Source: Candidatus Heimdallarchaeum aukensis
GTDB lineage: Archaea > Asgardarchaeota > Heimdallarchaeia > Heimdallarchaeales > Heimdallarchaeaceae
Assembly: GCA_021513695.1 (NCBI GenBank)
Contig: CP084166.1
Coordinates: 2,784,001 to 2,848,000, forward strand
DNA: 64,000 nucleotides
Reading direction: 5' to 3'
Below, in pieces: positions 26,098 through 51,970 of the stretch; within the stretch, counting starts at the first letter, position 1, and the number at the start of each line of letters is the position of its first letter. The notes below the pieces were generated by a model, which worked only from the letters and a program-made list of their open reading frames with translations, was not told the origin of the DNA and did no database searches. The translations under genes and the position numbers were made by a program.

Positions 26098-29000
26098 TTG
26101 GCAGATCTAAAACTATCAGAAAATGCATTAACAGTACTACAAAAAAGGTACTTACTAAAAAATGAGAAAAACGAAGCAATTGAAACTCCAGAACAGATGT
26201 TTGAAAGAGTGGCAAAAAGTATAGCTTCAAGTGAAGAAGAAAAAAAAGAATTTTATGAATTGATGACTTCTTTAAGATTTCTACCTAACAGCCCTACTCT
26301 TATGAACGCAGGAACGAAGCTAGGTCAACTATCAGCTTGTTTCACTGGAGAGCAAGTAATAATCACAGCTGAAGGAAATAAGCAAATAAAAGATATTCAA
26401 ATTGGAGATTTAGTCCTGACAGCTTCAGGTAATTTTAGAAAGGTTACCCAAACTATGCAAAGAAAAGTTGACAAAAGATACATTATTGATGTTTTGAAAC
26501 TACCTAACTCTACTCTTTCTGTAACAGAAGATCACCCTATTCTTACCTACAAAAATGGAAAAATTAAATGGAGTTTAGTAAAAGAATTAAGTAAAAACGA
26601 TTTTGTAGCTTTATCATACCCAAAGGAAATTGAAGATATTTCTTCAATTAATGTTATAGATTACTTATCTGATAGAGATTATAAAGTAAAGGATGGTATG
26701 ATATTAAATAAAAATACAAAAGTTGGAATAGAATCAGATGAAATAAGTGATCAAGAAATTCCAATAAGAAATAAAATAGAAGTAGATGGAGAGTTTCTTA
26801 GATTTTTAGGTTATTATGCTAGTGTGGGAGAACTAGATAAAAAAATAGTAAGATTTGCTTTTTCAGATAAAGAGATGGATTATGTTGAAGAAGTAATATC
26901 AATTGCAAAAAGTAAATTTGAATTAGATGCAAGAATAGAAAACTCTGATGGAAATATAGTGATTGTGCAATTTTATTCATCCATACTATCTGAATTCGTT
27001 AAGAAAGTCATAGGAGAAGGAAACAACAAAAGAGTTCCCATATGGATATTGAAATTACCTCCAGAAAAACAAGAAAACTTTGTTTTAGGGTGTTTTAGAG
27101 GAGATAACTCTTTATTTTCTAGTAGTTATATGCTTGATGCTCGTTTATCTGCGTGTAATGATAATTTAGTATATTCAATATGGATCATGTTAATGAGAAT
27201 GGGGATAGTTCCCAATCTTGATAAATCCCCTATTCCAAAAGGTGAAACCACCTATTCTTATTCTTGTTATATTGGAGAAACAGAAAAGAGCGATTCCTTT
27301 GTAGAGATTCATGGAAAAGACGGTAAAGGAATTTCTCAATTATCTTTACAAAAATTAAATCATATAATTGTCAATGATACTGTTTTTCTCCCTATACGAA
27401 GTATCGAATGTATCGAAGAACCTGTGACTGTTTATAATCTAGAAGTAGAGGAGGAACATACATATGTTGCAAATTTTGTTTCAGTTCACAATTGTTTTGT
27501 ACTTCCAATAGATGATTCTCTTCCCTCCATTTTTGATGCAGTGAAAAAAGCGGCATTAATACACCAAAGTGGAGGAGGATGCGTTGCTGAAGGAACAGTA
27601 ATACCTACAGAAGAATTCGGTTTTATACCCATTGAAAAGATACCTGGATTTGAAAACATTCCTTCTGACGAACAAGGACATGATTGTGAACCTTTCACTG
27701 TTTATTCATTTGATGAGGACAAAGAATCTTTCACAAAAGGAACAGTAACAAAACTTTGGAAATTCAAGAAAAATAAATATTTGAGCATTAAATTCGGAAC
27801 AGAAGGAGTAATAGAAGTCACACACTGGCATCCTTTCATAGTTTATGTCCCTTCTGAAGAGAAAAAGAAAGGAGGATATTATACAGAAAAAAGAGCAGAT
27901 GAATTGAAAGTTGGAGATCTGTTGGTTAGTCCCTCTACCCATAAGATAACTGAAACTTCTAGTATTTCCGATGTACACAAGGTTAAAGTAGAAGAAATAA
28001 AAGAAATAGAAGAAGAAAAAGTATTTTATGACTTTACAGTACTTAAATATAATAACTATCTAGCAGGTTCTAAACAATTTACAGTTATCCATAATACAGG
28101 TTTTAGCTTTAGTAATATTAGACCAAAAAATGATGTAGTCAAAACTACTGGGGGGGTAGCTTGTTTTCCTGAAGATGTAAGGATTTATACTAACAAGGGA
28201 TTATTAACAATCAAAGATATAATCCAATCTGATCAACCAATTAAAGCTTTGACTCATGATGGATTCCACGAAATAATAAATAAATACGATAACGGAGATG
28301 CTGAAGTTTACAGACTTATTACATCTAATGGATATTCAGTTAAGGCAACCTCTACTCATAAATTTTTAACAATAGAAAATAATGAGTTGGTACTAAAGCC
28401 TCTTAATAAACTTCAAGAAGGAGATTATGTTCTTCTTTTTTCTACTTTTGAATCTGTTGATGAAAAAGAACCATTTAAGCTATCTCCTATTACTGACGAT
28501 GGTCAAACTTTTGATGAAATTTATCTTGATGAAGATCTTGCCTATTTCATAGGATTAACTTATGCAGATGGACATATTATTGATGATGGAAGACATTATA
28601 GCGTAAGAATCACTTTAAACAAGAACCAAATACGTATAATCGAAAAAATAAAGAAAATAGTTCAAACTAAGTTTGACTATGATTTGAAAGTCTATGAGCG
28701 TAAAAATGTAAATAAAGTTGAACTTGTTCTACACGGAAAAAGATTTGTAAAATTGTTAAAAGAAAATAATTTACTTAAAGAAAAATGTGAAAATATTCGT
28801 ATTCCAGAATTATTATTTCAAAGCCCAAGAAATGTCCTAAGCTCATTTATTGCAGGATACTTCGATGGTGATGGTCATGTAAGTAAAAGCGGGCGAATTA
28901 GCATTAAAACAATATCCAAACAAATGAGTGAAGATTTTTCATTATTGATAACGCGGTTAGGTGTACTATCTACAACTCATATTAGTCCCCCTATTTATGG

Positions 29001-32000
29001 AATAAGAAGAAATAAAAAAAGTTACAGAGTTTCAATCCCAACAGCTCTCTTCAAGAAAAGATTTGTAGAACAGCTTTCAAAATACTCAATAAAACTAGAA
29101 AATTATACATTGAAAGAAGGATCTACAAATAAACTTTTTTCTTATCCGTTTAACATCTTAACTCATGTTGGGAATCCTTCCAAGAGGGCAGATATTGCTA
29201 AAACAGTAATACCTTATAACAGAAAGAATACCTATCGTAAAGCTATTCTACGGATTCTTCAAAATTCTAATAAATATGGACTTACACCCGAAGAAATTGC
29301 TTTCTTAAAGAAACTAGAAAATCTTTACCCTGTAAAGATAAAGTCTATTAAAAAAGAAGGAATTGAACGTGTTTATAATCTCGAAGTTAAGAATATCCAT
29401 CGACTTGTGGCTAATGGTTTTTATGTTTCAAATTCAGGCCCCATAAGCTTTATGGAAGTCTTTAATGCTGCAACAAATACTATCAAACAAGGGGGATGTA
29501 TTGCTGCTGAGAGTTTAGTAAGAACTACAAATGGTGTTCTTCCTGCTGGTGATTTACTTAATTGTCCTCCTCTTGGCGAAAACAACACTCAAGAATTAAT
29601 CTATGATGGAGAGTCGTATAACAATGCTTTTCTGTCTCTGGATAACGGTTTTGCGGATGTATTAATTCTTGAAACTGAGCTGGGTTTGACTTTAAAAGCT
29701 ACATATAATCATTTAATTGCTACAGTAGATGAAGACGGGAATATAGTATGGACTGAGGTTGAGAAGATTAAGAAGGGCGATTGGGTTGTAATTGTATTAG
29801 GGGGTCACGTTGGACAAAAAATCTTCCTCCCAAAAATAGAAAATCAACATCATAATGCTAATCCCATTAAAATCCCTGAACAATTTAATGCTGAGCTTGC
29901 CGAAATCTTAGGTTTGTATATGGCTGATGGATGTATTAGTACTGGTGGTCGAATCATCTTTAGTGTCGATAATAAGGATTTAGATCTCATTAAAAGAATC
30001 GAATCTTTAATGAAAAAAGTATTTAATTTAAAACTTGGAAGAATAGAGGATAAACAAACTTACTCGGATGTTATTTTCTATTCTCGTGATCTATGCGACT
30101 ATTTCAGTAAAATGAATTGGAAAAAAGAGTCATCATCAGAAGCTTTTATCCCTCAAGAGATTTTTATTTCTGAACCAGAAATAGCAAAAGCATTCGTCCG
30201 AGGGTTGTTTGAAGGTGATGGTAATGTTCGTTCTGAAGGATATCCAAGGCTTTATTCAACATCTAAAACATTAATTGAACAGACACAACAACTTCTTTTA
30301 GGCCTTAACATTGTTTCTTCTGTAATAAAGGAAGAAGATAGAAGTAATAGTTTAGGTGATTTACCTCTATATGAATTATCAATAATTCCAGAAAGAAGTA
30401 TTATAAAATTCAAAGAAGAAATTGGTTTTATATCAAACAGAAAAAAACAGTTGCTGGAATCTAGGTTTACGGGCAAAAAGTTCGAACAATCAGATATTAT
30501 TCCTAATCAAGGCAAAAAACTGAAAGAGCTATATAGTTATGTTGGTGCAGGGACCAGTAAAGGGAGAAATAAAAAAGGAGCAAACAGAGAATTTTATAGA
30601 GCAATATACCATTATATAAGCGAGAATCCATCTTCTAAAAGAAATTTGACAAGAAAAAGGTTAAATTATTTGATGAAAAATTTCGAACAAGTTAAGAATT
30701 CCAAGCATTTCCAACAGATGTCTGATCCAAAATACTATTTTACAAAGGTTATAGATGTTAAAGAAAATCGAACTTATACAATGGACTTCGAGGTGCCAGA
30801 ATCAAGCAAATTCGTAGCAAATGGTTTCTTAGTACATAATCGTCGTCGTGGGGCTAACATGGGTATCCTTCGTGTTGACCATCCTGATATCATGTCTTGG
30901 ATTACTTGTAAAGAAGACCAGACCAAATTTACTAATTTTAACATTTCTGTTGCAGTTACCTCTGAGTTTATGCAAGCAGTGGAAGAAAACAGAGACTATG
31001 ATCTTATCAATCCTCGCACAAAGAAAGTTGTAGGTAAACTCAATGCTGCTGAAGTTTTTAACAAAATTGTTGAGATGGCTTGGAAAAATGGCGAGCCGGG
31101 TATAGTTTTTATTGACCGTATGAACGAATTCAATCCTACCCCTGAAGTAGGAGATATTGAAAGCACTAATCCTTGTGTAGTGGGTGATTCATTAATATCT
31201 ACAGAATTTGGATTAATGAAAATGCGTGATTTAGTCTCCAAGTTTCCTGAAGGCTCAGTAAAAATAACTACTGATAACCGTGTTCCTCAACAAATATTAA
31301 CATCTGGAAACCAAGTGCAGTTGTTGGATACAAAAACTCAAGGGGTATCATTGAATACTATTACACGTGCTTTCTCTACTGGAATAAAAGATGTATACAA
31401 ACTAACTACAGTGTCAGGTTACGAGTTGAAAGCTACTGGAGACCATAAAGTACTAACCAATGAAGGCTGGGTACAAGTAAAAGACTTAGATGTTAAAAAA
31501 CATAGAGTAAAGATACAATCAGGAGAAGGAGTTTTTAACAGTGTAAAAGAGTTACCCATCAAAGTCGAAAATGAAATAACTGGTGAGAACGGAAGAAAAT
31601 ATAGTTTTAATTTACCAAAAACATGGTCGAAAGAGTTAGGTCATGTACTAGGTTGGCTAGTAGGAGATGGCTGGATAAGGACAGGAGATAAGAATAGAAG
31701 AGTAGGATTTACTTTTTCAAAGAAAGATGAAGAAGTGTTAAAGTATCTCAAGGATGTATTAAATAAATGGTACAACAAACAAATTAATGAAATAAAAAGA
31801 GAAACAAATGTTTATCATTTAAGTTACCATTCAAAATATTTTGTTGATTTCTTCATAAATTTGGGAGTTAAACCAGAAAAATCAGCAAAAAAGGTTGTAC
31901 CTGAGTCAATGTTTCTAGCTACTAAAGAAGCAGTAATTGCTTTCCTACAAGCACTTTTCTCTGCAGATGGAACAATACGTTACTCAAAGAAATCTTCAAG

Positions 32001-33783
32001 CGAATGGATAGCCCTTTCATCAAAAAGTAAAGAATTGCTAAAAGGAGTACAACTGTTACTGTTAAACTTGGGTATCAAATCAAGAATATTTGATCGAACA
32101 AGAAAAAGAAGAGAAAGAACATTCAAGTACATAGATAAAAATGGTTCACTAAAGTATTACAACAGTGATGGAATTCTCTATGAACTGGGAATATTCGGCA
32201 AAAATATTGATATATTCAAGGAAAAAATAAATTTCTTACAGAGGGAGAAAAAAGAAAAACTAGCTAACCTTAAACCAAGAAAAAGAAGAGAAGTCATCTT
32301 TGAAGAGAAGATAAAGAGTATAAAATATGTTGGAAAGGACGAAGTATATGATTTAACTGAACCAAGAACATTAAGCTTCATTGCTAATGGAATAGTAAGT
32401 TTAGATTGCGGAGAGCAGCCCCTTCTCTCTTATGAGTCTTGTAATCTAGGATCAATTAATCTTGTAAGGCATGTTAAAGATGGAGAGATAGATTGGTCTT
32501 TACTTGAATCAACTATCCGTACAGCTGTTCGCTTTTTAGATAATGTTATCGATCGCAATGTTTACATTATTCCTGAAATAGAAGAGATGACCAAAGCCAA
32601 TAGAAAGATAGGCCTTGGGGTAATGGGTTTTGCTGATCTACTTGTTGAGCTCGGTATAAAATATGATACAGAAGAAGCATTGGAAATAGCTGAAAAAGTT
32701 ATGTCTTTCATTCAAAAAGTTGGTCGAGATGAATCTGTTAAATTAGGTGAAGAAAGAGGTAGCTTTCCTAACTTTGATAGAAGTATTTACAGAGGAAAGT
32801 ACAAAGCCATGAGAAATGCAACAATCACAACAATCGCTCCTACAGGAACTATTTCTCTTATTGCTGGGTGTTCAAGCGGTATTGAACCTTATTATGCAAT
32901 AGCTTTTGTGCGAAATATACTAGGTGGAAAGAAACTTTTTGAAATTAATCCCATCTTCGAAAGAATAGCTAAAGAGAAAGGATTCTACTCTGAAGAGCTC
33001 GTAGAAAAAATTTCTTCTGTTCATTCAATACAGAAATTGGATGAAATACCTGAAGAAATAAGAAAGTTGTTTGTAACAAGCCAAGATATTTCTCCAGAGT
33101 GGCACGTAAGAATCCAAGCAGCTTTCCAAAAATACACTGATAACGCTACTAGCAAAACAATTAATTTTTCGAGAGATGCTACAAAAGAAGATATCGCCAA
33201 AGCTTACAAACTCGCCCATAAACTAGGTTGTAAAGGTGTTACTGTTTATCGTGATGGTTCAAGAAAGTATCAAGTATTATCAACAAAGACAAAAAAGAAA
33301 AAGAAAGAAAAGCCAGTAGTTACTTCAGCAAAAGTTGTACCTAGAGCAAGACCAGAAATAACAACAGGTAGAACCCATAAAGTTAGAAGTGGTTGTGGTA
33401 ATCTTTACGTTACTGTTAATCAAGATGAAAATGGAGATATTTTTGAGGTATTTGTTCAAGTAGGTAAATCTGGAGGGTGTATCACCTCTCAAAGCGAGGC
33501 GATTGGAAGATTAATTTCTCTTTCACTTCGTTCGCAGGTTTCAGTTGAATCCATTGTGAGACAACTGTCAGGGATACGCTGTCCTAACCCTAGTTTCTAT
33601 AAAGGAAAAAGTATTCTCTCTTGTGCTGATGGTATAGCTTTAGTGCTTGAACAATATATACAAGGAAATCCTAACGTACGTGAATCTAATGGTTCTATCG
33701 TTTGTCCTGACTGTGGAGGAGTTTTAGCTTTTTCAGAGGGTTGCTATACTTGCACAAGCTGTGGTTATAGTAAATGTAGTTAA
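26098..33783 (+). CDS. nrdJ: adenosylcobalamin-dependent (class II) ribonucleotide reductase precursor carrying five inteins
   Basis: Extein segments: N-terminus LSENALTVLQKRYL..PEQMF, LSA|CFVLPIDDS, HQSGGG|TGFSFSNIRPK, TTGGVA|SGPISFMEVF, RRRGANMGIL, TNP|CGEQPLLSYESCNLG, and a C-terminal Cys4 zinc ribbon. Exteins total ~721 aa. The start codon is TTG. Confidence 0.85.
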   Translation: MADLKLSENALTVLQKRYLLKNEKNEAIETPEQMFERVAKSIASSEEEKKEFYELMTSLRFLPNSPTLMNAGTKLGQLSACFTGEQVIITAEGNKQIKDIQIGDLVLTASGNFRKVTQTMQRKVDKRYIIDVLKLPNSTLSVTEDHPILTYKNGKIKWSLVKELSKNDFVALSYPKEIEDISSINVIDYLSDRDYKVKDGMILNKNTKVGIESDEISDQEIPIRNKIEVDGEFLRFLGYYASVGELDKKIVRFAFSDKEMDYVEEVISIAKSKFELDARIENSDGNIVIVQFYSSILSEFVKKVIGEGNNKRVPIWILKLPPEKQENFVLGCFRGDNSLFSSSYMLDARLSACNDNLVYSIWIMLMRMGIVPNLDKSPIPKGETTYSYSCYIGETEKSDSFVEIHGKDGKGISQLSLQKLNHIIVNDTVFLPIRSIECIEEPVTVYNLEVEEEHTYVANFVSVHNCFVLPIDDSLPSIFDAVKKAALIHQSGGGCVAEGTVIPTEEFGFIPIEKIPGFENIPSDEQGHDCEPFTVYSFDEDKESFTKGTVTKLWKFKKNKYLSIKFGTEGVIEVTHWHPFIVYVPSEEKKKGGYYTEKRADELKVGDLLVSPSTHKITETSSISDVHKVKVEEIKEIEEEKVFYDFTVLKYNNYLAGSKQFTVIHNTGFSFSNIRPKNDVVKTTGGVACFPEDVRIYTNKGLLTIKDIIQSDQPIKALTHDGFHEIINKYDNGDAEVYRLITSNGYSVKATSTHKFLTIENNELVLKPLNKLQEGDYVLLFSTFESVDEKEPFKLSPITDDGQTFDEIYLDEDLAYFIGLTYADGHIIDDGRHYSVRITLNKNQIRIIEKIKKIVQTKFDYDLKVYERKNVNKVELVLHGKRFVKLLKENNLLKEKCENIRIPELLFQSPRNVLSSFIAGYFDGDGHVSKSGRISIKTISKQMSEDFSLLITRLGVLSTTHISPPIYGIRRNKKSYRVSIPTALFKKRFVEQLSKYSIKLENYTLKEGSTNKLFSYPFNILTHVGNPSKRADIAKTVIPYNRKNTYRKAILRILQNSNKYGLTPEEIAFLKKLENLYPVKIKSIKKEGIERVYNLEVKNIHRLVANGFYVSNSGPISFMEVFNAATNTIKQGGCIAAESLVRTTNGVLPAGDLLNCPPLGENNTQELIYDGESYNNAFLSLDNGFADVLILETELGLTLKATYNHLIATVDEDGNIVWTEVEKIKKGDWVVIVLGGHVGQKIFLPKIENQHHNANPIKIPEQFNAELAEILGLYMADGCISTGGRIIFSVDNKDLDLIKRIESLMKKVFNLKLGRIEDKQTYSDVIFYSRDLCDYFSKMNWKKESSSEAFIPQEIFISEPEIAKAFVRGLFEGDGNVRSEGYPRLYSTSKTLIEQTQQLLLGLNIVSSVIKEEDRSNSLGDLPLYELSIIPERSIIKFKEEIGFISNRKKQLLESRFTGKKFEQSDIIPNQGKKLKELYSYVGAGTSKGRNKKGANREFYRAIYHYISENPSSKRNLTRKRLNYLMKNFEQVKNSKHFQQMSDPKYYFTKVIDVKENRTYTMDFEVPESSKFVANGFLVHNRRRGANMGILRVDHPDIMSWITCKEDQTKFTNFNISVAVTSEFMQAVEENRDYDLINPRTKKVVGKLNAAEVFNKIVEMAWKNGEPGIVFIDRMNEFNPTPEVGDIESTNPCVVGDSLISTEFGLMKMRDLVSKFPEGSVKITTDNRVPQQILTSGNQVQLLDTKTQGVSLNTITRAFSTGIKDVYKLTTVSGYELKATGDHKVLTNEGWVQVKDLDVKKHRVKIQSGEGVFNSVKELPIKVENEITGENGRKYSFNLPKTWSKELGHVLGWLVGDGWIRTGDKNRRVGFTFSKKDEEVLKYLKDVLNKWYNKQINEIKRETNVYHLSYHSKYFVDFFINLGVKPEKSAKKVVPESMFLATKEAVIAFLQALFSADGTIRYSKKSSSEWIALSSKSKELLKGVQLLLLNLGIKSRIFDRTRKRRERTFKYIDKNGSLKYYNSDGILYELGIFGKNIDIFKEKINFLQREKKEKLANLKPRKRREVIFEEKIKSIKYVGKDEVYDLTEPRTLSFIANGIVSLDCGEQPLLSYESCNLGSINLVRHVKDGEIDWSLLESTIRTAVRFLDNVIDRNVYIIPEIEEMTKANRKIGLGVMGFADLLVELGIKYDTEEALEIAEKVMSFIQKVGRDESVKLGEERGSFPNFDRSIYRGKYKAMRNATITTIAPTGTISLIAGCSSGIEPYYAIAFVRNILGGKKLFEINPIFERIAKEKGFYSEELVEKISSVHSIQKLDEIPEEIRKLFVTSQDISPEWHVRIQAAFQKYTDNATSKTINFSRDATKEDIAKAYKLAHKLGCKGVTVYRDGSRKYQVLSTKTKKKKKEKPVVTSAKVVPRARPEITTGRTHKVRSGCGNLYVTVNQDENGDIFEVFVQVGKSGGCITSQSEAIGRLISLSLRSQVSVESIVRQLSGIRCPNPSFYKGKSILSCADGIALVLEQYIQGNPNVRESNGSIVCPDCGGVLAFSEGCYTCTSCGYSKCS
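26338..27492 (+). mobile_element. intein 1 (385 aa) with degenerate LAGLIDADG-like motifs
   Basis: Begins CFTGEQ and ends VSVHN, followed by the +1 Cys of extein CFVLP. It is inserted just before the conserved LSxCF cysteine. Confidence 0.75.
27580..28095 (+). mobile_element. intein 2 (172 aa mini-intein)
   Basis: Begins CVAEGT, has block B VTHWHPF, and ends TVIHN with +1 Thr of TGFSFS. No endonuclease domain is present. Confidence 0.75.
28162..29433 (+). mobile_element. intein 3 (424 aa) with LAGLIDADG homing endonuclease
   Basis: Begins CFPEDV. LAGLIDADG motifs are LAYFIGLTYADGH and IAGYFDGDGH. It ends GFYVSN (no penultimate His) with +1 Ser. Confidence 0.75.
29497..30840 (+). mobile_element. 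intein 4 (448 aa) with LAGLIDADG homing endonuclease
   Basis: Begins CIAAESLV. Motifs are LGLYMADGC and VRGLFEGDGN. It ends FLVHN with +1 Arg of RRRGANMG (an unusual +1 residue; the boundary is inferred by extein alignment). Confidence 0.65.
31174..32406 (+). mobile_element. intein 5 (411 aa) with LAGLIDADG homing endonuclease, inserted at the thiyl-radical Cys (TNP|C)
   Basis: Begins CVVGDS. Motifs are LGWLVGDGW and LQALFSADGT. It ends ..IVSLD and is followed by CGEQPL, so the terminal residue is apparently Asp rather than Asn. Confidence 0.65.
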
Positions 33784-36484: not shown

Positions 36485-39400
36485 ATGGGGTTTGAACTTA
36501 TGAAAAAAAGGATATTTTTAGCGATAGCAATAATTATTGCTCTATTTCCGATTTATCATTCTGGAGTTAATACTCAAGCAACAACTCAACCGGTTGTTAA
36601 TAATAATCAAATAACTCCTGAAGAAATCGGAGTAGGAAGTAAACTAACCTATCAAATAACACAATTTGAATTAGGTTCTGGTTTTGATCAATTATTACAA
36701 GACATAACACAAGATCCAGAAGCACCTGATATCGAGTTTGGTTATGACGGCAGTTTAGTAGGAAGTGAAATATGGTTTTATATCAGTCTTGAAGACCAAC
36801 TGCAATTCTTCCAATACAATTACTCTGACTGGGAGTGGACTAAAGAAAACATTACTCAAAAGAATGTAATGCAAGTTTTAGCTGGAATAAAATTAAGTGA
36901 AGACTTTTCAGCTTTTGCAAACCTATCCCAACTTAATTATCCAGAAGATGCAGTAAGACAAGATGAAGCTTATTATTATGATTCTTGGCCAATGTCTCAC
37001 TTTGAAACACCAATAACAAGTGACGATTTCTGGAATCCATTCAACGAAGGTTTTATAGACGGATTTAATTGGGGATTTTCAGATGAGATAAATGAATATG
37101 ATTGGGCATGGTTCAATTGGCCTAGTCCCGATGAGTATTATGACATGTATTGGTTTGCTCGAGACTTTGGACAAATGTGGGGATATGACACTGGAAGAGA
37201 AGCAGCTATGAATGCAAGAAATGAAAACCCTGGTGATCCTTGGGGAACAGCTTGGAATGATGCTAACTCTGCTAGTGGAGCTTTTAAAGTAGGTTTCTTA
37301 GAAGGCAGAGATGATGGATATAATGAAGGAAAAGATGATTATGTAAATAATAATAGAATCCCAGATAAAACCTTTAGTAATCCTTACGACGCAACTAATG
37401 ATATAACTGATATAGGTAAAAGGCGTGGATATGACGCTGCTTGGCCAGTATATTATGATGCAGGATACTTATATGAAGGAGCACAAGAATATTTCAATGA
37501 CAGACTCTACTGGGAACTATATTGTGATACTTGGGATACCTATCCTGGTGGTTACCTAGACGGATTTAGAGATGGATATTATACTGGTGTTTGGGATGGA
37601 CAATATGACCATGACTATGGAAGCTATGGAGATAACTTCTATCCTCCAGAGGGATATTGGGATCCTCGTGATGAATATCAATGGGGATATAATGATGGTT
37701 TAGCAGAAGGGTATCAATATGGATACGATGACGGTTACAACCAAGTAAATGATTATGAACAATATATCTGGGGTATGGAATCTTATATCTGGAATGCACA
37801 TGAAGATGGTTTTCAAGTTGGAGCTCAAGATTATATAAATAATATTGGTTATGATAATTCAACATTTACATTGCCATTTTCTAGTCCAGCTGATATGTAT
37901 GAAGAGGGAGCTAATTTCATTTATGAAATGATGTATCCTAAAGCTTATGATGATGGATGGAAATATGCTTTTCTTGTAGATAGAGATGGAGACGATTTGA
38001 ATTGGTTAATGCATGAAGGACCATTCTATTACATGTATTTACCTGATGTGATTTTAACTTTACAATCTGGTTCAGTTCTACCTGTACCTACAGATATGAC
38101 AATGTTCAAAGAATTGAACATTAGCATGATGGATTACGAAATCGATTATGATTATGGTGAAAACACAGATCTCTTTACAGAACACTTTACACCTTTCAGT
38201 ATATATGCTCCTGAAAGTGATTGGGCAGAGCTAGATACTTGGGATTGGGCTTTTGACCCAGAAAGTGACATGCCAGGAGTTGCAACAACTATAGATGGAA
38301 ACATATTTGAAATGGTATTCTATTGGGAAGAAGAAAGTGGAGATATTACTTTCGAGCTTACAATTCGTTATGATATGACTACTGGAGTTTTGCAATATTC
38401 TGGTTTTAGTGTAGATTTCACAACAGAAGCAGATATGTACATTAATGTTGCAATGGAGTATGAATCAGATACACAAATCAATCTACCAACACCTGATCCA
38501 ACTTCATGGTCTTACTTAATAGATACATTTAGCTTTACTTATGAATTACCTGATGACGCTCCACCTGAAGTTATAGATGGACTAAATAATTTCAAGAATG
38601 GGGGAGAAGATGCTGTTGGAAACGCATTCATGGACGTCGATTGGATTCAACATCTTGGTCTATGGAATGAATATAACGTTACATTCAAAGATCCTAACAA
38701 CCCAACTGATGCATCAGATCCAGTTACTATAATGCAACCAACTTTATCTCCTGGAATACAAATATTGCCTGATTGGGACCTTTGGGGCGGAATTATGCAA
38801 ACTGGAGATTCTTATTTGGCTATGTCTGAATGGATAGGTAATGCTGTAGATATGTTAAGCGATGCTAACCCAACTTTTGATGCATTTAGAAATGAACTGT
38901 ACTATGAAGTGAGTTCATACCATGATTCAACCAATAATATAATGTATCTCTATGCAGGTATATCTGGAGGATATGAATTACGTGTTGAAATGCTAAATGG
39001 AGATTGGGAATGGGAAGAAACAACAGTCTCATTATACTTCAAACTTGTTTTATGGACAGCCTATGATTATACCACTGGTATTTTCTTAGGAGCTGGTGTA
39101 GAAGGAACAATAGATGAAACATTCACTTCAAATATTCCAACCTCACCTCAGTTCACACTCTATGCAGATATTGATATCAGAATCAGAGCAGATTTAATAT
39201 CAAGTATAACAAGTATAACTGACATTCTAACCTTTGCTGAAATGCCAGAAAAAGACACCGAAGCACCAATCATTTCAGATGTAACTTACAGTCCAGATAA
39301 ACCAACAGAAGAAGATGTTATTACTATTAGTGCTAATGTAACAGATGATAATGGAGTTTGTTCAGTAATCTTACACTACAAGAATGACACATCTGAATGG

Positions 39401-39676
39401 CAAGAAGTAGAAATGGTAGATGATGGAACAGGAATCTACAGCGCTGAAATAGGTCCATTTGCTGCTGATACTGTTGTAGAGTTTTATATTACTGCAACAG
39501 ATATGACAGCTGCACAAAATGAAGCAACAGCAAATAATGGCGGAACAAACTATACAATTGAAATCAAAGGAAAAGGTGTTCTTGGAATTGGATTCAATTT
39601 TGTAGATGTTCTCATTATGGGTCTAGGATTGATCAGCATAGCTTCTCTCCTTACATTAGTAAAGAGAAAGAAATAA
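36485..39676 (+). CDS. large acidic, aromatic-rich secreted/cell-surface protein with a C-terminal TM anchor
   Basis: N-terminal signal-anchor (FLAIAIIIALFPIY). About 1000 aa rich in D/E/W/Y/G with repeated (D/E)GY..G(Y/W)(D/N) elements. An Ig/Fn3-like module lies near the C-terminus. A terminal hydrophobic helix is followed by KRKK. Confidence 0.6.
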   Translation: MGFELMKKRIFLAIAIIIALFPIYHSGVNTQATTQPVVNNNQITPEEIGVGSKLTYQITQFELGSGFDQLLQDITQDPEAPDIEFGYDGSLVGSEIWFYISLEDQLQFFQYNYSDWEWTKENITQKNVMQVLAGIKLSEDFSAFANLSQLNYPEDAVRQDEAYYYDSWPMSHFETPITSDDFWNPFNEGFIDGFNWGFSDEINEYDWAWFNWPSPDEYYDMYWFARDFGQMWGYDTGREAAMNARNENPGDPWGTAWNDANSASGAFKVGFLEGRDDGYNEGKDDYVNNNRIPDKTFSNPYDATNDITDIGKRRGYDAAWPVYYDAGYLYEGAQEYFNDRLYWELYCDTWDTYPGGYLDGFRDGYYTGVWDGQYDHDYGSYGDNFYPPEGYWDPRDEYQWGYNDGLAEGYQYGYDDGYNQVNDYEQYIWGMESYIWNAHEDGFQVGAQDYINNIGYDNSTFTLPFSSPADMYEEGANFIYEMMYPKAYDDGWKYAFLVDRDGDDLNWLMHEGPFYYMYLPDVILTLQSGSVLPVPTDMTMFKELNISMMDYEIDYDYGENTDLFTEHFTPFSIYAPESDWAELDTWDWAFDPESDMPGVATTIDGNIFEMVFYWEEESGDITFELTIRYDMTTGVLQYSGFSVDFTTEADMYINVAMEYESDTQINLPTPDPTSWSYLIDTFSFTYELPDDAPPEVIDGLNNFKNGGEDAVGNAFMDVDWIQHLGLWNEYNVTFKDPNNPTDASDPVTIMQPTLSPGIQILPDWDLWGGIMQTGDSYLAMSEWIGNAVDMLSDANPTFDAFRNELYYEVSSYHDSTNNIMYLYAGISGGYELRVEMLNGDWEWEETTVSLYFKLVLWTAYDYTTGIFLGAGVEGTIDETFTSNIPTSPQFTLYADIDIRIRADLISSITSITDILTFAEMPEKDTEAPIISDVTYSPDKPTEEDVITISANVTDDNGVCSVILHYKNDTSEWQEVEMVDDGTGIYSAEIGPFAADTVVEFYITATDMTAAQNEATANNGGTNYTIEIKGKGVLGIGFNFVDVLIMGLGLISIASLLTLVKRKK

Positions 39677-48823: not shown

Positions 48824-51800
48824 TTATTTCTCTTCAGCGGAAATAGATGGATAGTCAGATAATCTAAATATTGCTTCCTTCATAGTTTCTATTAGATCAA
48901 TTACTTTTTTGTCTCCTTGTTCAAGTAAATAGTTTGTTGCTGCTTTAATTCCATCAATTAAAGGTTCTGTCATCTCATCAAACTTATACCTTGCTACGAA
49001 ACGAATTATATCGCTTATAACTACTAACCTATCTAAATGTTTTGTCATCTTTTTAAAGTATTCAGGTTCAATGTAACACTTGACTATCCAGTCTTTTCCT
49101 CCTGATATGACTGAGATATTGTCAAATCTATAAAGTGCAGTTACTTCACTCTTAGTTGAAAAAATTTCTTTAGGAATGGTTCCAAGGTCAATATAGAAGC
49201 CTTTTCTATCTGTTGACAGTTCTAAATCTCGATTTACAAACGAATCATGAATTAAACGGATATAATTGTTGATCAGTTTAATTAGAGTGTTTCCTAGAGA
49301 GCGCATATTAATATATAGATTTGTTTCAAACTCCTTTCTGGTTTTACTTTTTGTCCAGGCTCTTTTAACAGTAAGCATAGCGCTTTTAGCATCTTGTATC
49401 ATTTGATTATAAGAATCATCTATAACATAGTCTGGAATTCTACGATAAAGTAAAATGGAGAGAGCAATCTCTAAGAAGTTTTTAGGTAGCTCTTCTAATT
49501 CTCTTTCTCTTACTTCTTTAATTATTGCATCGATTTTTGTTTTACATTCTTCAACACTAGGGGTGAATTGATTGGGTTGGAGTTTTTTATAATGAAAAGC
49601 GTCATCAATCCAGTTTTCGTAATTCTTCCTAATGTAATCCAAGTGAGTATCAATTGTTCCTATTTTAGATTTTACCCAGTGTTGAATATCTGAAAATATT
49701 TTCTTATTTACAGGTTCCCAAGATTTAATCAACTTTCCTCTTATCTTTTTAAGTTCTTTTTCTGCAGAAGTGTAAAGCTTTTTAGCTTTTTCGTTATAAT
49801 GAATATCATTACTTCTTAATTGTGCAAAGGAAGAAAGCAGATCCTGCAATACTTTTTGAACTCTGCTTGAATTTTTATTCCAAATATCATAACAATTGAT
49901 ATGATAATTTTTACTTGCAAAATTTTCAGGTACATTCTTAAACTCTGGAAAAGATGGAAAAGATTCTTTTATCTCTGGTAGTAAATTGGCATTTCTTAAT
50001 TTTGATACTCTCTCTTTTTGGAATAAAGTAATAAGATTATCTAATTTAGCCACTATATCAGATTCAAATTTGAATATCTTCTCTGGATAGCTACTCATCA
50101 TTTTTCTGATGATTGAATTCTTATAACTTGAATTGAGAATCTTGTGATCAATTAAACAAGCAGTAAGTATCTCTGGGTTGGATTCAGCTTGAGAAAGAGA
50201 GAAAACGCTATTATCATATCTAACTGTTAAACCTGGTTTTAGCAACAATTCATAAACAGAAATAGCTCTCTTATCAAATTTTAATTGTATTTTACCAAAA
50301 AAACTTTTTTTGTAAACTACAGGTACAGACTTGATATATGCTTTTAGAAATCCCGTGTTTATAGCTCCACCTATTAAATCTCTTGCTGTTAGACTTAGTT
50401 GTTTACCTATTTCAAGTTCTCTCTTACGAATATCTTGAATATAGTTGGATATAATTGTTGAAAAAATGTATAATGGGATAATCTTCTTGAAAGAATTGAT
50501 GATATATAAATAGATATTACCAAGAGAAAAATTGAAGAACTGATCCTGAACAATTTTGACCAAAGTTGAGATAATTGCTCTCTCTAATGCTTTAGCAAAA
50601 ATAACAGATTCTTCAATATTTGATATTTGTAACCTTTCTCCCACACCAGCATTTTCTATAATTGAGGTAAGCTCTTTCAGGAGATTTTTGCCTACATTTG
50701 TAAGCTTTTGAATTTTGCCTATAATAAATTCTTTCTTAAGATTAAGCGTTGAACCTCCTTTCTTTGACTTCTTTACAGTTTTGATATTTTCTTCAGTAAT
50801 AATAGCAAAAGTAAAATCATTTATGACACTCCATACACTTGGAGGAAGTTCTCTCTCTTTGAATGAACCTATTAATTGACTAAAGAAAAGTCTCGCTCCT
50901 TGAAGAATCAAAGGTTCAGCATCTTCTGTTAATGCATCACAAATTATGTCTCCTTGATTGATAGGGCTTATCTTCTCTTTAATCGTTTTTTGTAATTTTT
51001 GGTATATTTTAACATCTCTAAAATCTATCAAACCCATTAATGGTTTCTTTTTTGCTATGCTTAGAATAATTTCTTTACTTAACTCATCAGCAATAAAAGT
51101 TTCTGCAGAATGGATAGCAGAAATTGAAAGTTTGGAGTAAATTGAATTTATTTTCTTGTCCAATTTTTTACCTAAATACTCATCAATTAGATCCTCTGCT
51201 TTTGGAGAATGCTTTTTTAGATAATTCTCTATTCTAGAAGAGATTTCATCTACTGCATATCTAGGATTTTTATATTGTAAGATTGCAAAAGGATTCTCAA
51301 GAGAAATAATATTTAATATGTCTTGAGAAAGCATTTGAATAATAAGTTGACGTTTAAATGAATTAATCGTTCCTTTATCCCATGACTGTTCTTCTTCTTT
51401 TAACCATGCTTCTAAGTTTTTCATTTGAAGAAGAGTAGGGTAAATATCAGGTTGTGTAGCTGCTTTTTCTATGTGGTCATTAATCAAGTTGATGAAAACT
51501 GAGCTATTTTCTTTTATGCTGATTTTTTGCCTTGCAATTGTGCAAGCATTAAGAAATGATTTGGATACATAGTCTGGGGAAACAGTTCTTCCCGATTCTA
51601 CATTATCATAAAAATTAGGTGTAAGTGTGATAAATTTACCAAATGATAATGCTAACTCCTGTACTAAACTTTCATCCTCAATAGAAATTGTATTAGCTGT
51701 TTCTGATCGAACAATATATTGAACAACGATATTTGTTTCTTCGCTAGGCATGGTAAAACTACCAAAGCGAACAAATTCGTTCTGACCAGTCATAAATTGT

Positions 51801-51970
51801 GAATCACTGACATTAACTTCTGTAGTCATTAGACTTTGCAAAGATAATAATATTCCTTGCATCATGCTTGAATCTTTAGGCAAATGACCTACTGAAGCAA
51901 AGCTTATTCCCGCATCACTACCAACAGAAATCCATAAATCATAGGGATACTCTTTACTCATATTTCTCAC
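48824..51970 (-). CDS. large hypothetical protein (1048 aa), no recognised catalytic motif
   Basis: Uninterrupted 3.1-kb ORF, predicted soluble. The N-terminal ~110 aa are faintly longin/roadblock-like. The rest is helical-repeat-like. Confidence 0.5.
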   Translation of the reverse strand: MRNMSKEYPYDLWISVGSDAGISFASVGHLPKDSSMMQGILLSLQSLMTTEVNVSDSQFMTGQNEFVRFGSFTMPSEETNIVVQYIVRSETANTISIEDESLVQELALSFGKFITLTPNFYDNVESGRTVSPDYVSKSFLNACTIARQKISIKENSSVFINLINDHIEKAATQPDIYPTLLQMKNLEAWLKEEEQSWDKGTINSFKRQLIIQMLSQDILNIISLENPFAILQYKNPRYAVDEISSRIENYLKKHSPKAEDLIDEYLGKKLDKKINSIYSKLSISAIHSAETFIADELSKEIILSIAKKKPLMGLIDFRDVKIYQKLQKTIKEKISPINQGDIICDALTEDAEPLILQGARLFFSQLIGSFKERELPPSVWSVINDFTFAIITEENIKTVKKSKKGGSTLNLKKEFIIGKIQKLTNVGKNLLKELTSIIENAGVGERLQISNIEESVIFAKALERAIISTLVKIVQDQFFNFSLGNIYLYIINSFKKIIPLYIFSTIISNYIQDIRKRELEIGKQLSLTARDLIGGAINTGFLKAYIKSVPVVYKKSFFGKIQLKFDKRAISVYELLLKPGLTVRYDNSVFSLSQAESNPEILTACLIDHKILNSSYKNSIIRKMMSSYPEKIFKFESDIVAKLDNLITLFQKERVSKLRNANLLPEIKESFPSFPEFKNVPENFASKNYHINCYDIWNKNSSRVQKVLQDLLSSFAQLRSNDIHYNEKAKKLYTSAEKELKKIRGKLIKSWEPVNKKIFSDIQHWVKSKIGTIDTHLDYIRKNYENWIDDAFHYKKLQPNQFTPSVEECKTKIDAIIKEVRERELEELPKNFLEIALSILLYRRIPDYVIDDSYNQMIQDAKSAMLTVKRAWTKSKTRKEFETNLYINMRSLGNTLIKLINNYIRLIHDSFVNRDLELSTDRKGFYIDLGTIPKEIFSTKSEVTALYRFDNISVISGGKDWIVKCYIEPEYFKKMTKHLDRLVVISDIIRFVARYKFDEMTEPLIDGIKAATNYLLEQGDKKVIDLIETMKEAIFRLSDYPSISAEEK

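What the first reader, a model, noticed from the sequence alone, without database searches (positions are those of the whole stretch)
31174..32406. Intein 5 ends in Asp (..IVSLD|C) and intein 3 ends in ..VSN, both non-canonical C-terminal splice junctions
By extein alignment (TNP|CGEQPLL), the last residue of intein 5 is Asp, not the near-universal Asn. There is no penultimate His. Intein 3 (28162..29433) also lacks the penultimate His (ends GFYVSN). Such termini imply altered or slow C-terminal cleavage chemistry. The alternative is an intein that is no longer splicing-competent, which would inactivate this RNR.
Basis: partly seen in the sequence, partly recalled or inferred. Interest (0 to 1): 0.5.

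Follow-up and report, generated by a model that had tools for sequence, protein, structure and literature searches.

The report
Aspartate-ending intein in archaeal RNR
One of five self-splicing inserts (inteins) in an Asgard archaeon's B12-dependent ribonucleotide reductase really ends in aspartate instead of asparagine, but this is a conserved, widespread variant of a kind already shown to splice, not a broken intein.

Summary
Confirmed. ORF 26098-33783 is a class II ribonucleotide reductase (NrdJ) carrying five inteins. Intein 5 (31174-32406) reads TNP|C...IVSLD|CGEQ. Intein 3 (28162-29433) reads GVA|C...FYVSN|SGP. Intein-free homologues fix both boundaries. No realignment yields HN or N at the intein 5 junction.

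The Asp end is not decay. Of 81 full-length inteins at the same TNP|CGE site, 38 end in Asp, 23 in Gln and 20 in Asn. The Asp type has a fixed signature. Both histidines that normally assist Asn cyclisation are replaced (block-F His by Leu, penultimate His by Leu/Val), and G:5 is Ser. Several synonymous codons encode each of these residues. Carriers span archaea and bacteria, in intact nrdJ genes. Against Ca. Heimdallarchaeum endolithica PR6, intein 5 has dN/dS 0.12 and the extein 0.04.

The Chy RIR1 intein sits at this same site. I recall it as the published Asp-ended intein that splices (Amitai 2004). Loss of the penultimate His, as in intein 3, occurs in about 5% of functional inteins. Verdict: new member of a known kind, modest interest.

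More surprising is intein 4 (29497-30840). It and at least 20 related clusters have Cys1 and His-Asn but Arg, Lys, Ile or Val at +1, so no C-extein nucleophile.

The parts
26098..33783 (+). nrdJ precursor ORF (class II, B12-dependent ribonucleotide reductase, 2561 aa) with five inteins. The spliced extein is 721 aa.
26338..27492 (+). Intein 1 (385 aa), LSA|C...VHN|C, canonical termini. Known RIR1 site (VSA|CF).
27580..28095 (+). Intein 2 (172-aa mini-intein), GGG|C...IHN|T, canonical termini. Known RIR1 site (GGG|TG).
28162..29433 (+). Intein 3 (424 aa, LAGLIDADG type), GVA|C...GFYVSN|S. It has C-terminal Asn and Ser in place of the penultimate His. Block B TSTH lies at 28348-28359, LAGLIDADG motifs at 28537-28575 and 28846-28878, and blocks F/G (VYNLEVKNIHRLVANGFYVSN) at 29371-29433.
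29434..29436 (+). Ser +1 of intein 3 (TCA), the C-extein nucleophile.
29497..30840 (+). Intein 4 (448 aa, LAGLIDADG type), QGG|C...GFLVHN|R. Cys1 and His-Asn are canonical, but +1 is Arg (CGT, 30841-30843). It lies outside the finding and is noted in passing.
31174..32406 (+). Intein 5 (411 aa, LAGLIDADG type), TNP|C...IVSLD|C. This is the Asp-terminated intein of the finding.
31174..31176 (+). Cys1 of intein 5 (block A nucleophile). It is preceded by Pro at -1 (TNP, 31165-31173).
31435..31446 (+). Block B TGDH of intein 5 (Thr88, His91). Both residues are invariant in alignment A1.
31648..31674 (+). First LAGLIDADG motif of intein 5, LGWLVGDGW (Asp165).
31942..31974 (+). Second LAGLIDADG motif of intein 5, FLQALFSADGT (Asp265).
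32344..32406 (+). Block F/G module of intein 5, VYDLTEPRTLSFIANGIVSLD. It holds block-F Asp393, Arg398, Leu400 (in place of the block-F His), Ser409 (G:5), Leu410 (in place of the penultimate His) and Asp411 (in place of Asn).
32404..32409 (+). The C-terminal splice junction GAT|TGC: Asp411 of the intein, then Cys +1. By alignment, Cys +1 is the Cys of the NrdJ TNPCGE active-site motif.

Best explanation
Intein 5 is a functional class 1 intein with a LAGLIDADG homing endonuclease. It is inserted at TNP|CGEQ, the most frequently invaded site of ribonucleotide reductases, directly before the active-site Cys. It belongs to a large, conserved subgroup of the inteins at that site in which the C-terminal Asn is replaced by Asp. 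Chy RIR1 sits at the same site, and from memory it is the published Asp-ended intein shown to splice.

Proposed mechanism (the chemistry is inferred). Steps 1 and 2 are standard. Cys1 forms the thioester, helped by block B Thr88/His91 and block F Asp393. Cys +1 then takes over the N-extein. In step 3 the side-chain carboxyl of Asp411 attacks its own backbone carbonyl. This forms a cyclic anhydride instead of a succinimide and releases the intein. The S-to-N shift follows.

The active site has been re-tuned for a carboxylate nucleophile. The two histidines that normally assist Asn cyclisation are both replaced by Leu, Ser is fixed at G:5, and a basic or polar residue is common two positions before the former block-F His.

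Intein 3 is an ordinary class 1 intein (Cys1, TSTH, block-F His, C-terminal Asn, Ser +1) of the minority that works without the penultimate His.
For: Shown:
- Boundaries are exact and restore a gapless NrdJ.
- Cys1, TxxH, block-F Asp and Cys +1 are present, and both LAGLIDADG motifs are intact.
- Pfam Intein_splicing scores 67.9 bits against a cut-off of 35.8, and LAGLIDADG_3 has E = 1.2e-22.
- The AF2 model has pLDDT 92 and pTM 0.91, and best matches intein-endonucleases TliVMA 7qsu and PI-PfuI 1dq3.
- Of 81 full-length allelic inteins, 38 end in Asp. None of the 38 has His at the block-F position (Leu 32) or at G:6 (Leu 35, Val 3). By contrast 23 of 23 Gln-type and 16 of 20 Asn-type keep the block-F His.
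- Asp is encoded by GAT (27) and GAC (8), and each Leu by five codons.
- Carriers include Heimdall-, Woese-, Pace-, Nano- and Aenigmatarchaeota, Methanoperedens, Omnitrophota, Planctomycetia and CPR bacteria.
- In 32 of 35 loci the downstream extein is full length and in frame.
- Against PR6, dN/dS is 0.12 for intein 5, 0.26 for intein 3 and 0.04 for the extein.

From the literature:
- Chy RIR1 (345 aa) and Mth RIR1 are inserted at TNP|CGEQ (InBase-derived Table S1 of PMC3359363).
- Asp and Gln termini can cyclise and are accepted in class 1 inteins, and about 5% of functional inteins lack His G:6 (PMC4031507; PMC7664689).
Against: No experiment exists for this intein. I could not retrieve the Chy RIR1 sequence or the Amitai 2004 paper. 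Two statements therefore rest on my memory of that abstract: that Chy RIR1 is the Asp-ended intein of that study, and that its Asp-to-Asn mutant fails to splice. It is not tested whether Chy RIR1 shares the S-L-D / block-F Leu signature.

Asp cyclisation is the textbook proposal, but the review notes that 'other mechanisms are possible'. In a rough NJ tree built without the last 14 residues, the Asp type is clustered but not monophyletic (59 of 81 nearest neighbours share the type, permutation p < 0.0002). Its history therefore involves either repeated switches or recombination of the C-terminal module. Pro at -1 is a context in which many inteins splice poorly (PMC6486613). The count of 38 in 81 is inflated, because loci were ranked by similarity to an Asp-type query. 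In the protein search only 5 of about 40 C-junctions were Asp.
Confidence: 0.8

Rival explanations
1. Intein 5 (and/or intein 3) is a decayed intein that can no longer splice, so this nrdJ is a dead gene.
For: The terminus is non-canonical, both assisting histidines are lost in intein 5, and Pro sits at -1. Five inteins in one gene might suggest a gene that is tolerated as junk.
Against: The 2561-codon ORF is intact here and in PR6. Extein dN/dS is 0.04 at dS 0.42, and intein 5 dN/dS is 0.12. The exact Asp/Leu/Leu/Ser signature recurs in 38 inteins across two domains and through synonymous codons, within full-length nrdJ ORFs. The other catalytic residues and the endonuclease motifs are intact.
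Confidence: 0.04
2. The boundaries are mis-assigned, and a canonical Asn or His-Asn lies at the true junction.
For: Cys occurs at both ends of the insert, which allows a one-residue slide. An Asn lies six residues upstream of the end.
Against: The gapless alignment of the spliced extein to T. maritima NrdJ fixes STNP|CGE. The upstream Asn is the block-G 'NG' that all 81 homologues share, and they end 6 residues later in HN, SN, HQ or LD directly before CGE. The slid version would give Val1 and Gly +1. For intein 3, intein-free alleles read GGVA|SGPISF.
Confidence: 0.01
3. The intein is functional, but C-terminal release does not go through Asp cyclisation. Candidates are direct hydrolysis of the branched intermediate's scissile bond, a route that depends on a condition (pH, redox, temperature), or splicing so slow that it acts as a post-translational brake on RNR activity.
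For: The review states that other mechanisms are possible for Asp, Gln and Glu termini. Both general acid/base histidines are replaced by Leu. C-terminal cleavage is known to be pH-sensitive in other inteins. The intein sits directly on the catalytic Cys, where it would be an effective switch.
Against: Asp is invariant in the subgroup (38 of 38, both codons). That points to a direct chemical role for the side chain rather than a passive residue. From memory, Amitai 2004 found that every substitution of the terminal Asp of Chy RIR1 abolished splicing. No evidence for regulation exists.
Confidence: 0.15
4. The Asp codon is a sequencing or assembly error (AAT read as GAT).
For: A single transition separates the Asn and Asp codons.
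Against: The same GAT/GAC, with the co-varying Leu, Leu and Ser, is present in PR6 and in 34 other independent assemblies.
Confidence: 0.005

Closest known systems
Chy RIR1 intein (Carboxydothermus hydrogenoformans NrdJ). I recall it as the intein with a C-terminal Asp shown to splice in Amitai, Dassa & Pietrokovski 2004, J Biol Chem 279:3121.
   Same: Same host protein and exactly the same insertion site, TNP|CGEQ, with Cys +1 (InBase-derived table). Class 1 intein. C-terminal Asp (from the paper's title and my memory of the abstract, consistent with the 345-aa length in the table).
   Different: 345 aa against 411 aa here. It comes from a bacterium (Firmicutes) rather than an Asgard archaeon.
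Gln-terminated inteins (CIV RIR1, Pab and Mma Pol II inteins)
   Same: The C-terminal Asn is replaced by another residue able to cyclise, and splicing has been demonstrated (PMC4031507). Gln-ended alleles are also common at this very site (23 of 81).
   Different: The Gln-type alleles at this site keep the block-F His (23 of 23) and mostly keep the penultimate His (17 of 23). The Asp type has lost both. The ring formed would be a glutarimide rather than an anhydride.
Mth RIR1, Pfu RIR1-2 / Pab RIR1-3, Tth RIR1-2, Dra RIR1 and other allelic inteins at TNP|CGE
   Same: Same insertion site, with Pro at -1 and Cys +1. They are homologous over the splicing domain and, for the large ones, the endonuclease.
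   Different: I did not see their C-terminal residues. Mth RIR1 is a 134-aa mini-intein without an endonuclease.
Inteins that splice without the penultimate His (Chen, Benner & Perler 2000, J Biol Chem 275:20431; about 5% of functional inteins)
   Same: Intein 3 has Ser at G:6 with C-terminal Asn and Ser +1. Its site GxA|SGP is a known RIR1 site (Pab RIR1-2). Eleven of 20 Asn-type alleles of intein 5's family also have Ser at G:6.
   Different: Intein 3's own family appears rare. I found it only in three Heimdallarchaeota assemblies besides one 26%-identical intein in another host protein. Its block-F position 4 is Asn (VYNLEV) rather than the usual Asp.
Type A bacterial intein-like (BIL) domains. 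These are relevant to intein 4 only.
   Same: N-terminal Cys, C-terminal His-Asn and no +1 nucleophile. The proposed route is thioester formation plus Asn cyclisation, then attack of the freed alpha-amine on the thioester (PMC4031507).
   Different: BILs sit in variable regions of non-conserved bacterial proteins, lack homing endonucleases and give mostly cleavage products. Intein 4 is a LAGLIDADG intein in a conserved loop of an essential enzyme, with intein-free alleles, and is homologous (about 30-35% identity) to canonical +1 Thr inteins at the same site.

Membership tests
Class 1 intein (HINT splicing domain): intein 5 | In-frame insertion in a conserved host motif, whose removal restores the uninterrupted host sequence | tested here: met
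   The spliced extein aligns gaplessly to T. maritima NrdJ across STNP|CGE.
Class 1 intein (HINT splicing domain): intein 5 | N-terminal Cys/Ser nucleophile and block B TxxH | tested here: met
   Cys1 and TGDH (Thr88, His91) are invariant in alignment A1.
Class 1 intein (HINT splicing domain): intein 5 | [quoted passage not shown] | tested here: met
   Asp411 (GAT) is present and canonical Asn is absent. Asp is an accepted alternative according to PMC4031507 and PMC7664689.
Class 1 intein (HINT splicing domain): intein 5 | Penultimate His (G:6). Conserved but not obligatory. | tested here: not met
   Leu410. Leu or Val occupies this position in all 38 Asp-type relatives. About 5% of functional inteins lack this His.
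Class 1 intein (HINT splicing domain): intein 5 | Cys/Ser/Thr at +1 of the C-extein | tested here: met
   Cys (TGC, 32407-32409).
Class 1 intein (HINT splicing domain): intein 5 | Profile match and HINT fold | tested here: met
   Pfam Intein_splicing scores 67.9 bits against a cut-off of 35.8. The AF2 model has pLDDT 92, and its best PDB matches are intein-endonucleases.
Class 1 intein (HINT splicing domain): intein 5 | Demonstrated protein splicing | not testable with these tools
   This needs an expression or MS experiment. The indirect support is purifying selection on the extein and intein.
LAGLIDADG homing endonuclease (intein-borne) | Two LAGLIDADG motifs with acidic catalytic residues, plus a profile match | tested here: met
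   LGWLVGDGW (Asp165) and FLQALFSADGT (Asp265). LAGLIDADG_3 has E = 1.2e-22 with two stretches. Cleavage activity is not testable here.
Asp-terminated RIR1 inteins (prototype Chy RIR1) | Insertion at TNP|CGEQ of NrdJ | tested here: met
   Chy RIR1 is listed as residues 271-615, +1 C616, cassette TNPCGEQ. The window has the same cassette.
Asp-terminated RIR1 inteins (prototype Chy RIR1) | C-terminal Asp | tested here: met
   for the window and its relatives. For Chy RIR1 itself this rests on the title of Amitai 2004 and on my memory of the abstract.
Asp-terminated RIR1 inteins (prototype Chy RIR1) | Sequence homology to Chy RIR1 itself, and a shared active-site signature | not tested
Asp-terminated RIR1 inteins (prototype Chy RIR1) | Splicing depends on Asp (Asp to Asn, Gln, Glu or Ala abolishes splicing) | not testable with these tools
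   This needs mutagenesis. The loss of both assisting His residues in all Asp-type members agrees with an active site tuned to Asp.
Class 1 inteins lacking the penultimate His: intein 3 | Cys1, TxxH, C-terminal Asn and +1 Ser/Thr/Cys present, with a non-His residue at G:6 | tested here: met
   Cys1, TSTH, a block-F His (KNIHRL)...VSN|S. Boundaries are fixed by intein-free alleles. VSN is conserved in L001 (57% identity) and L063.
Type A BIL domain: intein 4, considered only for mechanism | Cys1 and C-terminal His-Asn with no +1 nucleophile | tested here: met
   QGG|C...VHN|R here. Related clusters have K, R, I or V at +1.
Type A BIL domain: intein 4, considered only for mechanism | Located in variable regions of non-conserved bacterial proteins, with no homing endonuclease and no empty allele | tested here: not met
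   It lies in the conserved KQGGxRRGA segment of NrdJ, carries LAGLIDADG motifs, and intein-free alleles exist (L003 reads KQGG|RRRGA). It is therefore not a BIL, although it may work like one.

The most novel reading that the evidence does not exclude
This one precursor may need three different non-canonical C-junction chemistries.

The Asp-type module of intein 5 would be a distinct catalytic solution without the two assisting histidines, working through an anhydride route.

The more radical case is its neighbour, intein 4. It would belong to a family of true, endonuclease-bearing inteins that I did not find described in the searchable literature. These inteins sit in the NrdJ segment KQGG|xRRGA and have no +1 Cys/Ser/Thr. 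I found Lys, Arg, Ile or Val at +1 in 21 sequence clusters (including the window), all keeping Cys1 and His-Asn. They would have to mature the enzyme in one of two ways. One is BIL-like ligation, in which the freed alpha-amine attacks the thioester. The other is double cleavage into a two-piece RNR.

The extein downstream of intein 4 is under strong purifying selection in both Heimdallarchaeum genomes that carry it (dN/dS 0.04), so some productive route must exist.
Probability: 0.4. Interest if true: 0.75.

Novelty: new member of a known kind. Interest (0 to 1): 0.35.

Why it matters
The intein sits immediately before the Cys of the NrdJ TNPCGE active-site motif. From general knowledge, this Cys is the thiyl-radical residue of ribonucleotide reductases. 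If so, the cell cannot make deoxyribonucleotides with this enzyme unless the Asp-ended intein is removed.

The Asp ending turns out to be a large, conserved subgroup with a specific re-tuned active site, in which both assisting histidines become Leu. That turns a single published oddity (Chy RIR1) into a natural series of dozens of sequences. Such a series could be used to study how a HINT domain catalyses peptide-bond cleavage by a carboxylate. It could also be mined for C-terminal cleavage modules with different pH or histidine dependence.

For annotation, the result shows that Asp- and Gln-ended inteins at this site should not be called pseudogenes.

The side observation on intein 4, if confirmed, would extend nucleophile-free protein ligation from BIL domains to bona fide mobile inteins.

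Tried and rejected
- Shifted boundaries for intein 5 (a one-residue slide, or ending at the upstream Asn) were rejected by extein and block-G alignments.
- Sequencing error was rejected by PR6 and 34 other assemblies.
- The Amitai 2004 paper is not held. Full-text searches for Chy RIR1 or C-terminal Asp inteins gave only reviews and one InBase-derived table.
- Homologue search with intein 3 gave one distant hit, in a non-RNR host.
- A metagenome scan with the intein 3 alignment found nothing. A degenerate block F/G DNA pattern found only unrelated HINT domains.
- A viral-contig scan with the intein 5 alignment gave only distant inteins of at most about 36% identity, with no Asp-type relatives.
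- PDB sequence searches found no close solved relative of inteins 4 or 5.
- A clean monophyletic Asp clade was not supported by the NJ tree. The types are only statistically clustered.
- Literature searches for inteins with Lys/Arg at +1, or for nucleophile-independent inteins, returned nothing relevant beyond BIL domains. That is weak evidence of absence, because subscription journals are not covered.
- The structure model gives fold and confidence only, so I could not inspect active-site geometry.
Full report
WHAT IS THERE. The finding lies inside one 7.7-kb ORF (26098-33783, + strand, 2561 aa). Pfam finds the N-terminal, barrel and TSCPD domains of a ribonucleotide reductase. It also finds five intein splicing domains and four LAGLIDADG endonuclease domains. 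Cutting out five segments leaves a 721-aa protein. That protein aligns to the B12-dependent (class II) reductase NrdJ of Thermotoga maritima (PDB 1xje/1xjk, E about 1e-122) without any gap at the five junctions: LSA|CFV, GGG|TG, GVA|SGP, KQGG|RRRGA and STNP|CGE.

The source is a close relative of Candidatus Heimdallarchaeum endolithica PR6. Locus L063 from CP084167.1 is 93-95% identical at the DNA level, and its intein 5 is 95% identical in protein. All five insertion sites are already-known reductase intein sites in an InBase-derived table (PMC3359363, Table S1).

THE OBSERVATION. Intein 5 (31174-32406, 411 aa) begins with Cys after Thr-Asn-Pro. It ends ...AGT TTA GAT followed by TGC GGA GAG, that is Ser-Leu-Asp|Cys-Gly-Glu. 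Intein 3 (28162-29433, 424 aa) ends ...GTT TCA AAT|TCA GGC CCC, that is Val-Ser-Asn|Ser-Gly-Pro.

For intein 3, three related Heimdallarchaeota genomes carry the empty allele TTGGVA|SGPISFMEV, so the boundary is unambiguous. For intein 5 the only formal ambiguity is a one-residue slide, because Cys flanks both ends. The slid version would start with Val and be followed by Gly, so I reject it. The Asn six residues upstream belongs to the 'NG' of block G, which every homologue has six residues before its end. PR6 has the identical three termini, which rules out a sequencing error.

IS THE ASP END DECAY OR DESIGN?
A protein search with intein 5 returned 89 relatives, nearly all reductase fragments cut at the same site. 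A scan of one genome per species returned 80 loci. From these I extracted 81 full-length inteins at TNP|CGE. Of these, 38 end in Asp, 23 in Gln and 20 in Asn. The proportion of Asp is inflated, because loci were ranked by similarity to an Asp-type query. In the protein search it was 5 of about 40.

The positions that best separate Asp-type from other members all lie in the last 14 residues.
- The His eleven residues before the end is absent in 38 of 38 Asp-type inteins (Leu 32, Lys 2, Tyr 2, Phe 2). By its spacing from the block-F Asp and from the C-terminus, this is the conserved block-F His, called F:13 in the review. It is present in 23 of 23 Gln-type and 16 of 20 Asn-type inteins.
- The penultimate residue is Leu (35) or Val (3) and never His.
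- G:5 is Ser in 33 of 38.
- The residue two before the former His is often Lys, Arg or Gln instead of hydrophobic.

Across 35 loci the terminal Asp is written GAT 27 times and GAC 8 times. Each of the two Leu positions uses five different codons. The amino acids are therefore held by selection, not by recent common descent.

Carriers span Heimdall-, Woese-, Pace-, Nano- and Aenigmatarchaeota, Methanoperedens, Omnitrophota, Planctomycetia and candidate-phyla bacteria. In 32 of 35 loci the reading frame continues through a full-length C-extein.

In a rough neighbour-joining tree built without the last 14 residues, the Asp type is not one clean clade. Nearest neighbours do share the terminal type far more often than chance (59 of 81; permutation p < 0.0002).

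Between the window and PR6, dN/dS is 0.12 for intein 5 (0.15, 0.08 and 0.17 for the N-splicing, endonuclease and C-splicing parts), 0.26 for intein 3 and 0.04 for the extein at dS 0.42. A reductase whose exteins are under that much constraint must be made functional. All three inteins compared against PR6 (inteins 3, 4 and 5) must therefore be compatible with maturation.

The rest of intein 5 is intact. Cys1, block B Thr-x-x-His, the block-F Asp and both LAGLIDADG motifs with their acidic residues are present. An AlphaFold2 model is confident (pLDDT 92, pTM 0.91). It best matches solved intein-endonucleases (TliVMA 7qsu, PI-PfuI 1dq3, PI-SceI).

HOW IT MOST LIKELY WORKS. Steps 1, 2 and 4 of the standard class 1 pathway need only residues that are present. 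For step 3, the reviews state that inteins lacking the terminal Asn use Asp or Gln, which can also cyclise. [quoted passage not shown] With Asp, the product of cyclisation is a cyclic anhydride rather than a succinimide. This is inference from chemistry.

According to the same review, the block-F and penultimate histidines are proposed to deprotonate the Asn amide, stabilise the tetrahedral intermediate and activate the backbone carbonyl. A carboxylate nucleophile needs no deprotonation and could be held unproductively by two cationic histidines. That would explain why both are replaced together by Leu. This too is inference. It could be tested with the mutants listed under next steps.

From memory of the abstract of Amitai, Dassa and Pietrokovski (2004), the Asp-ended Chy RIR1 intein splices, and changing its Asp345 to Asn, Gln, Glu or Ala abolishes splicing. 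The InBase-derived table gives Chy RIR1 as 345 residues inserted at TNP|CGEQ with Cys +1, which is the site of intein 5. I could not obtain its sequence or the paper. Membership of the same sub-lineage is therefore likely but untested.

INTEIN 3. It has Cys1, Thr-Ser-Thr-His in block B, a block-F His, a C-terminal Asn and Ser +1. Only the penultimate His is replaced, by Ser. About 5% of functional inteins have another residue there, and experiments show such inteins can splice (Chen et al. 2000, cited). Ser at that position is even the commonest state among the Asn-type alleles of intein 5's family (11 of 20).

The ...GFYVSN end is conserved in PR6 and in a 57%-identical copy in another Heimdallarchaeota genome. 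The family otherwise seems rare. One distant protein hit and two metagenome scans gave nothing more. One small oddity is that its block-F position 4 is Asn (VYNLEV) rather than Asp.

COMPARISON AND NOVELTY. Intein 5 is a new member of a known kind: an allele of the reductase TNP|CGE intein with the documented Asp terminus. Three things seem not to be on record in the literature I could search. They are the size of the Asp-type subgroup, its cross-domain spread, and its fixed Leu/Ser/Leu/Asp signature. These are refinements, not a new category. Intein 3 is an ordinary example of a known minority.

WHAT I NOTICED BESIDE IT. Intein 4 (29497-30840) begins with Cys and ends His-Asn, but the next residue is Arg (CAT AAT|CGT CGT CGT). 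The boundary is unambiguous, because a related genome has the empty allele NAATNTIKQGG|RRRGANMGI (L003).

An exhaustive profile search of 1.84 billion representative proteins shows this is a family trait. Among 48 representatives with an intein at this site, 25 have Lys (16), Arg (7), Ile (1) or Val (1) at +1. The other 23 have Thr or Ser.

In 21 full-length members without a nucleophile (including the window), Cys1, the block B Thr and His-Asn are invariant. The block B His is kept in 18 of 21 and the block-F Asp in 17 of 21. They differ from their +1 Thr/Ser relatives at G:5 (Val against Ser/Thr), at G:4 (Leu against Val) and in lacking the block-F His. The two types are homologous (about 30-35% identity). 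The three entries for this site that I saw in the InBase-derived table all have Thr or Ser.

The only precedent I know for ligation without a +1 nucleophile is the type A bacterial intein-like domain. There, the amine freed by Asn cyclisation is proposed to attack the N-terminal thioester. Intein 4 fails the other defining features of BIL domains. The alternatives are such an aminolysis route or double cleavage into a two-piece enzyme. From general knowledge, reductases split into two polypeptides are known to function. I did not test this further. My literature searches cannot exclude a report in a journal that is not held.

Noticed in passing
window 29497-30843 (intein 4 and its +1 codon); also L001, L002, L006, L014, L063, L073 and P0100-P0142: Intein 4 has Cys1 and a His-Asn end, but Arg (CGT) at +1. 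An empty allele KQGG|RRRGA fixes the boundary. Among 48 representative inteins at this NrdJ site (KQGG|xRRGA), 25 have Lys, Arg, Ile or Val at +1. All catalytic residues for thioester formation and Asn cyclisation are conserved. Relatives with Thr/Ser at +1 differ at G:4, G:5 and the block-F His. There is no C-extein nucleophile, so either BIL-like aminolysis or a two-piece RNR is implied.
   Followed up: partly
window 28174-33780 compared with L063 (Ca. Heimdallarchaeum endolithica PR6): Synonymous divergence of the inteins (dS 0.06, 0.14 and 0.22 for inteins 3, 4 and 5) is well below that of the surrounding extein (0.42). This suggests the inteins were exchanged or homogenised between the two lineages more recently than the host gene diverged (ongoing homing), or that their constraints differ.
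   Followed up: partly
window 30562-30585 (within intein 4); the 67-aa segment around it is absent from L063; P0094: Intein 4 contains an internal motif GRNKKGAN (GR.RRGAN in relatives) that resembles the extein sequence GGRRRGAN at its own insertion site. The 67-aa segment holding it is missing in PR6. One database protein (P0094) joins the internal motif directly to the extein, as if recombination or mis-assembly had occurred between the two copies.
   Followed up: no
L004-L080 (loci at the TNP|CGE site), e.g. L023 and L032 (Thermoanaerobacterium isolates): Gln-terminated alleles (mostly ...VHQ|C) are as common as Asn-terminated ones at this site (23 against 20 of 81). They occur in cultured bacteria and keep both assisting histidines, unlike the Asp type.
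   Followed up: partly
window 31165-31176: The residue before intein 5 is Pro, in TNP or the rare SNP variant, at every N-terminal junction recovered for this insertion site. That is a -1 context in which many inteins are reported to splice poorly (PMC6486613). This family must be adapted to it.
   Followed up: no
window 29371-29388 (intein 3, block F): Block-F position 4 of intein 3 is Asn (VYNLEV) rather than the usual Asp. This is conserved in the two Heimdallarchaeota relatives.
   Followed up: no
window 36485-39676 (+) and 48824-51970 (-): Two ORFs of more than 1000 aa have no Pfam match at E <= 1e-4. Other neighbours are ordinary (T2SSE-type ATPase, DUF354, aminotransferase, PmbA/TldD, HEAT-repeat protein).
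   Followed up: no
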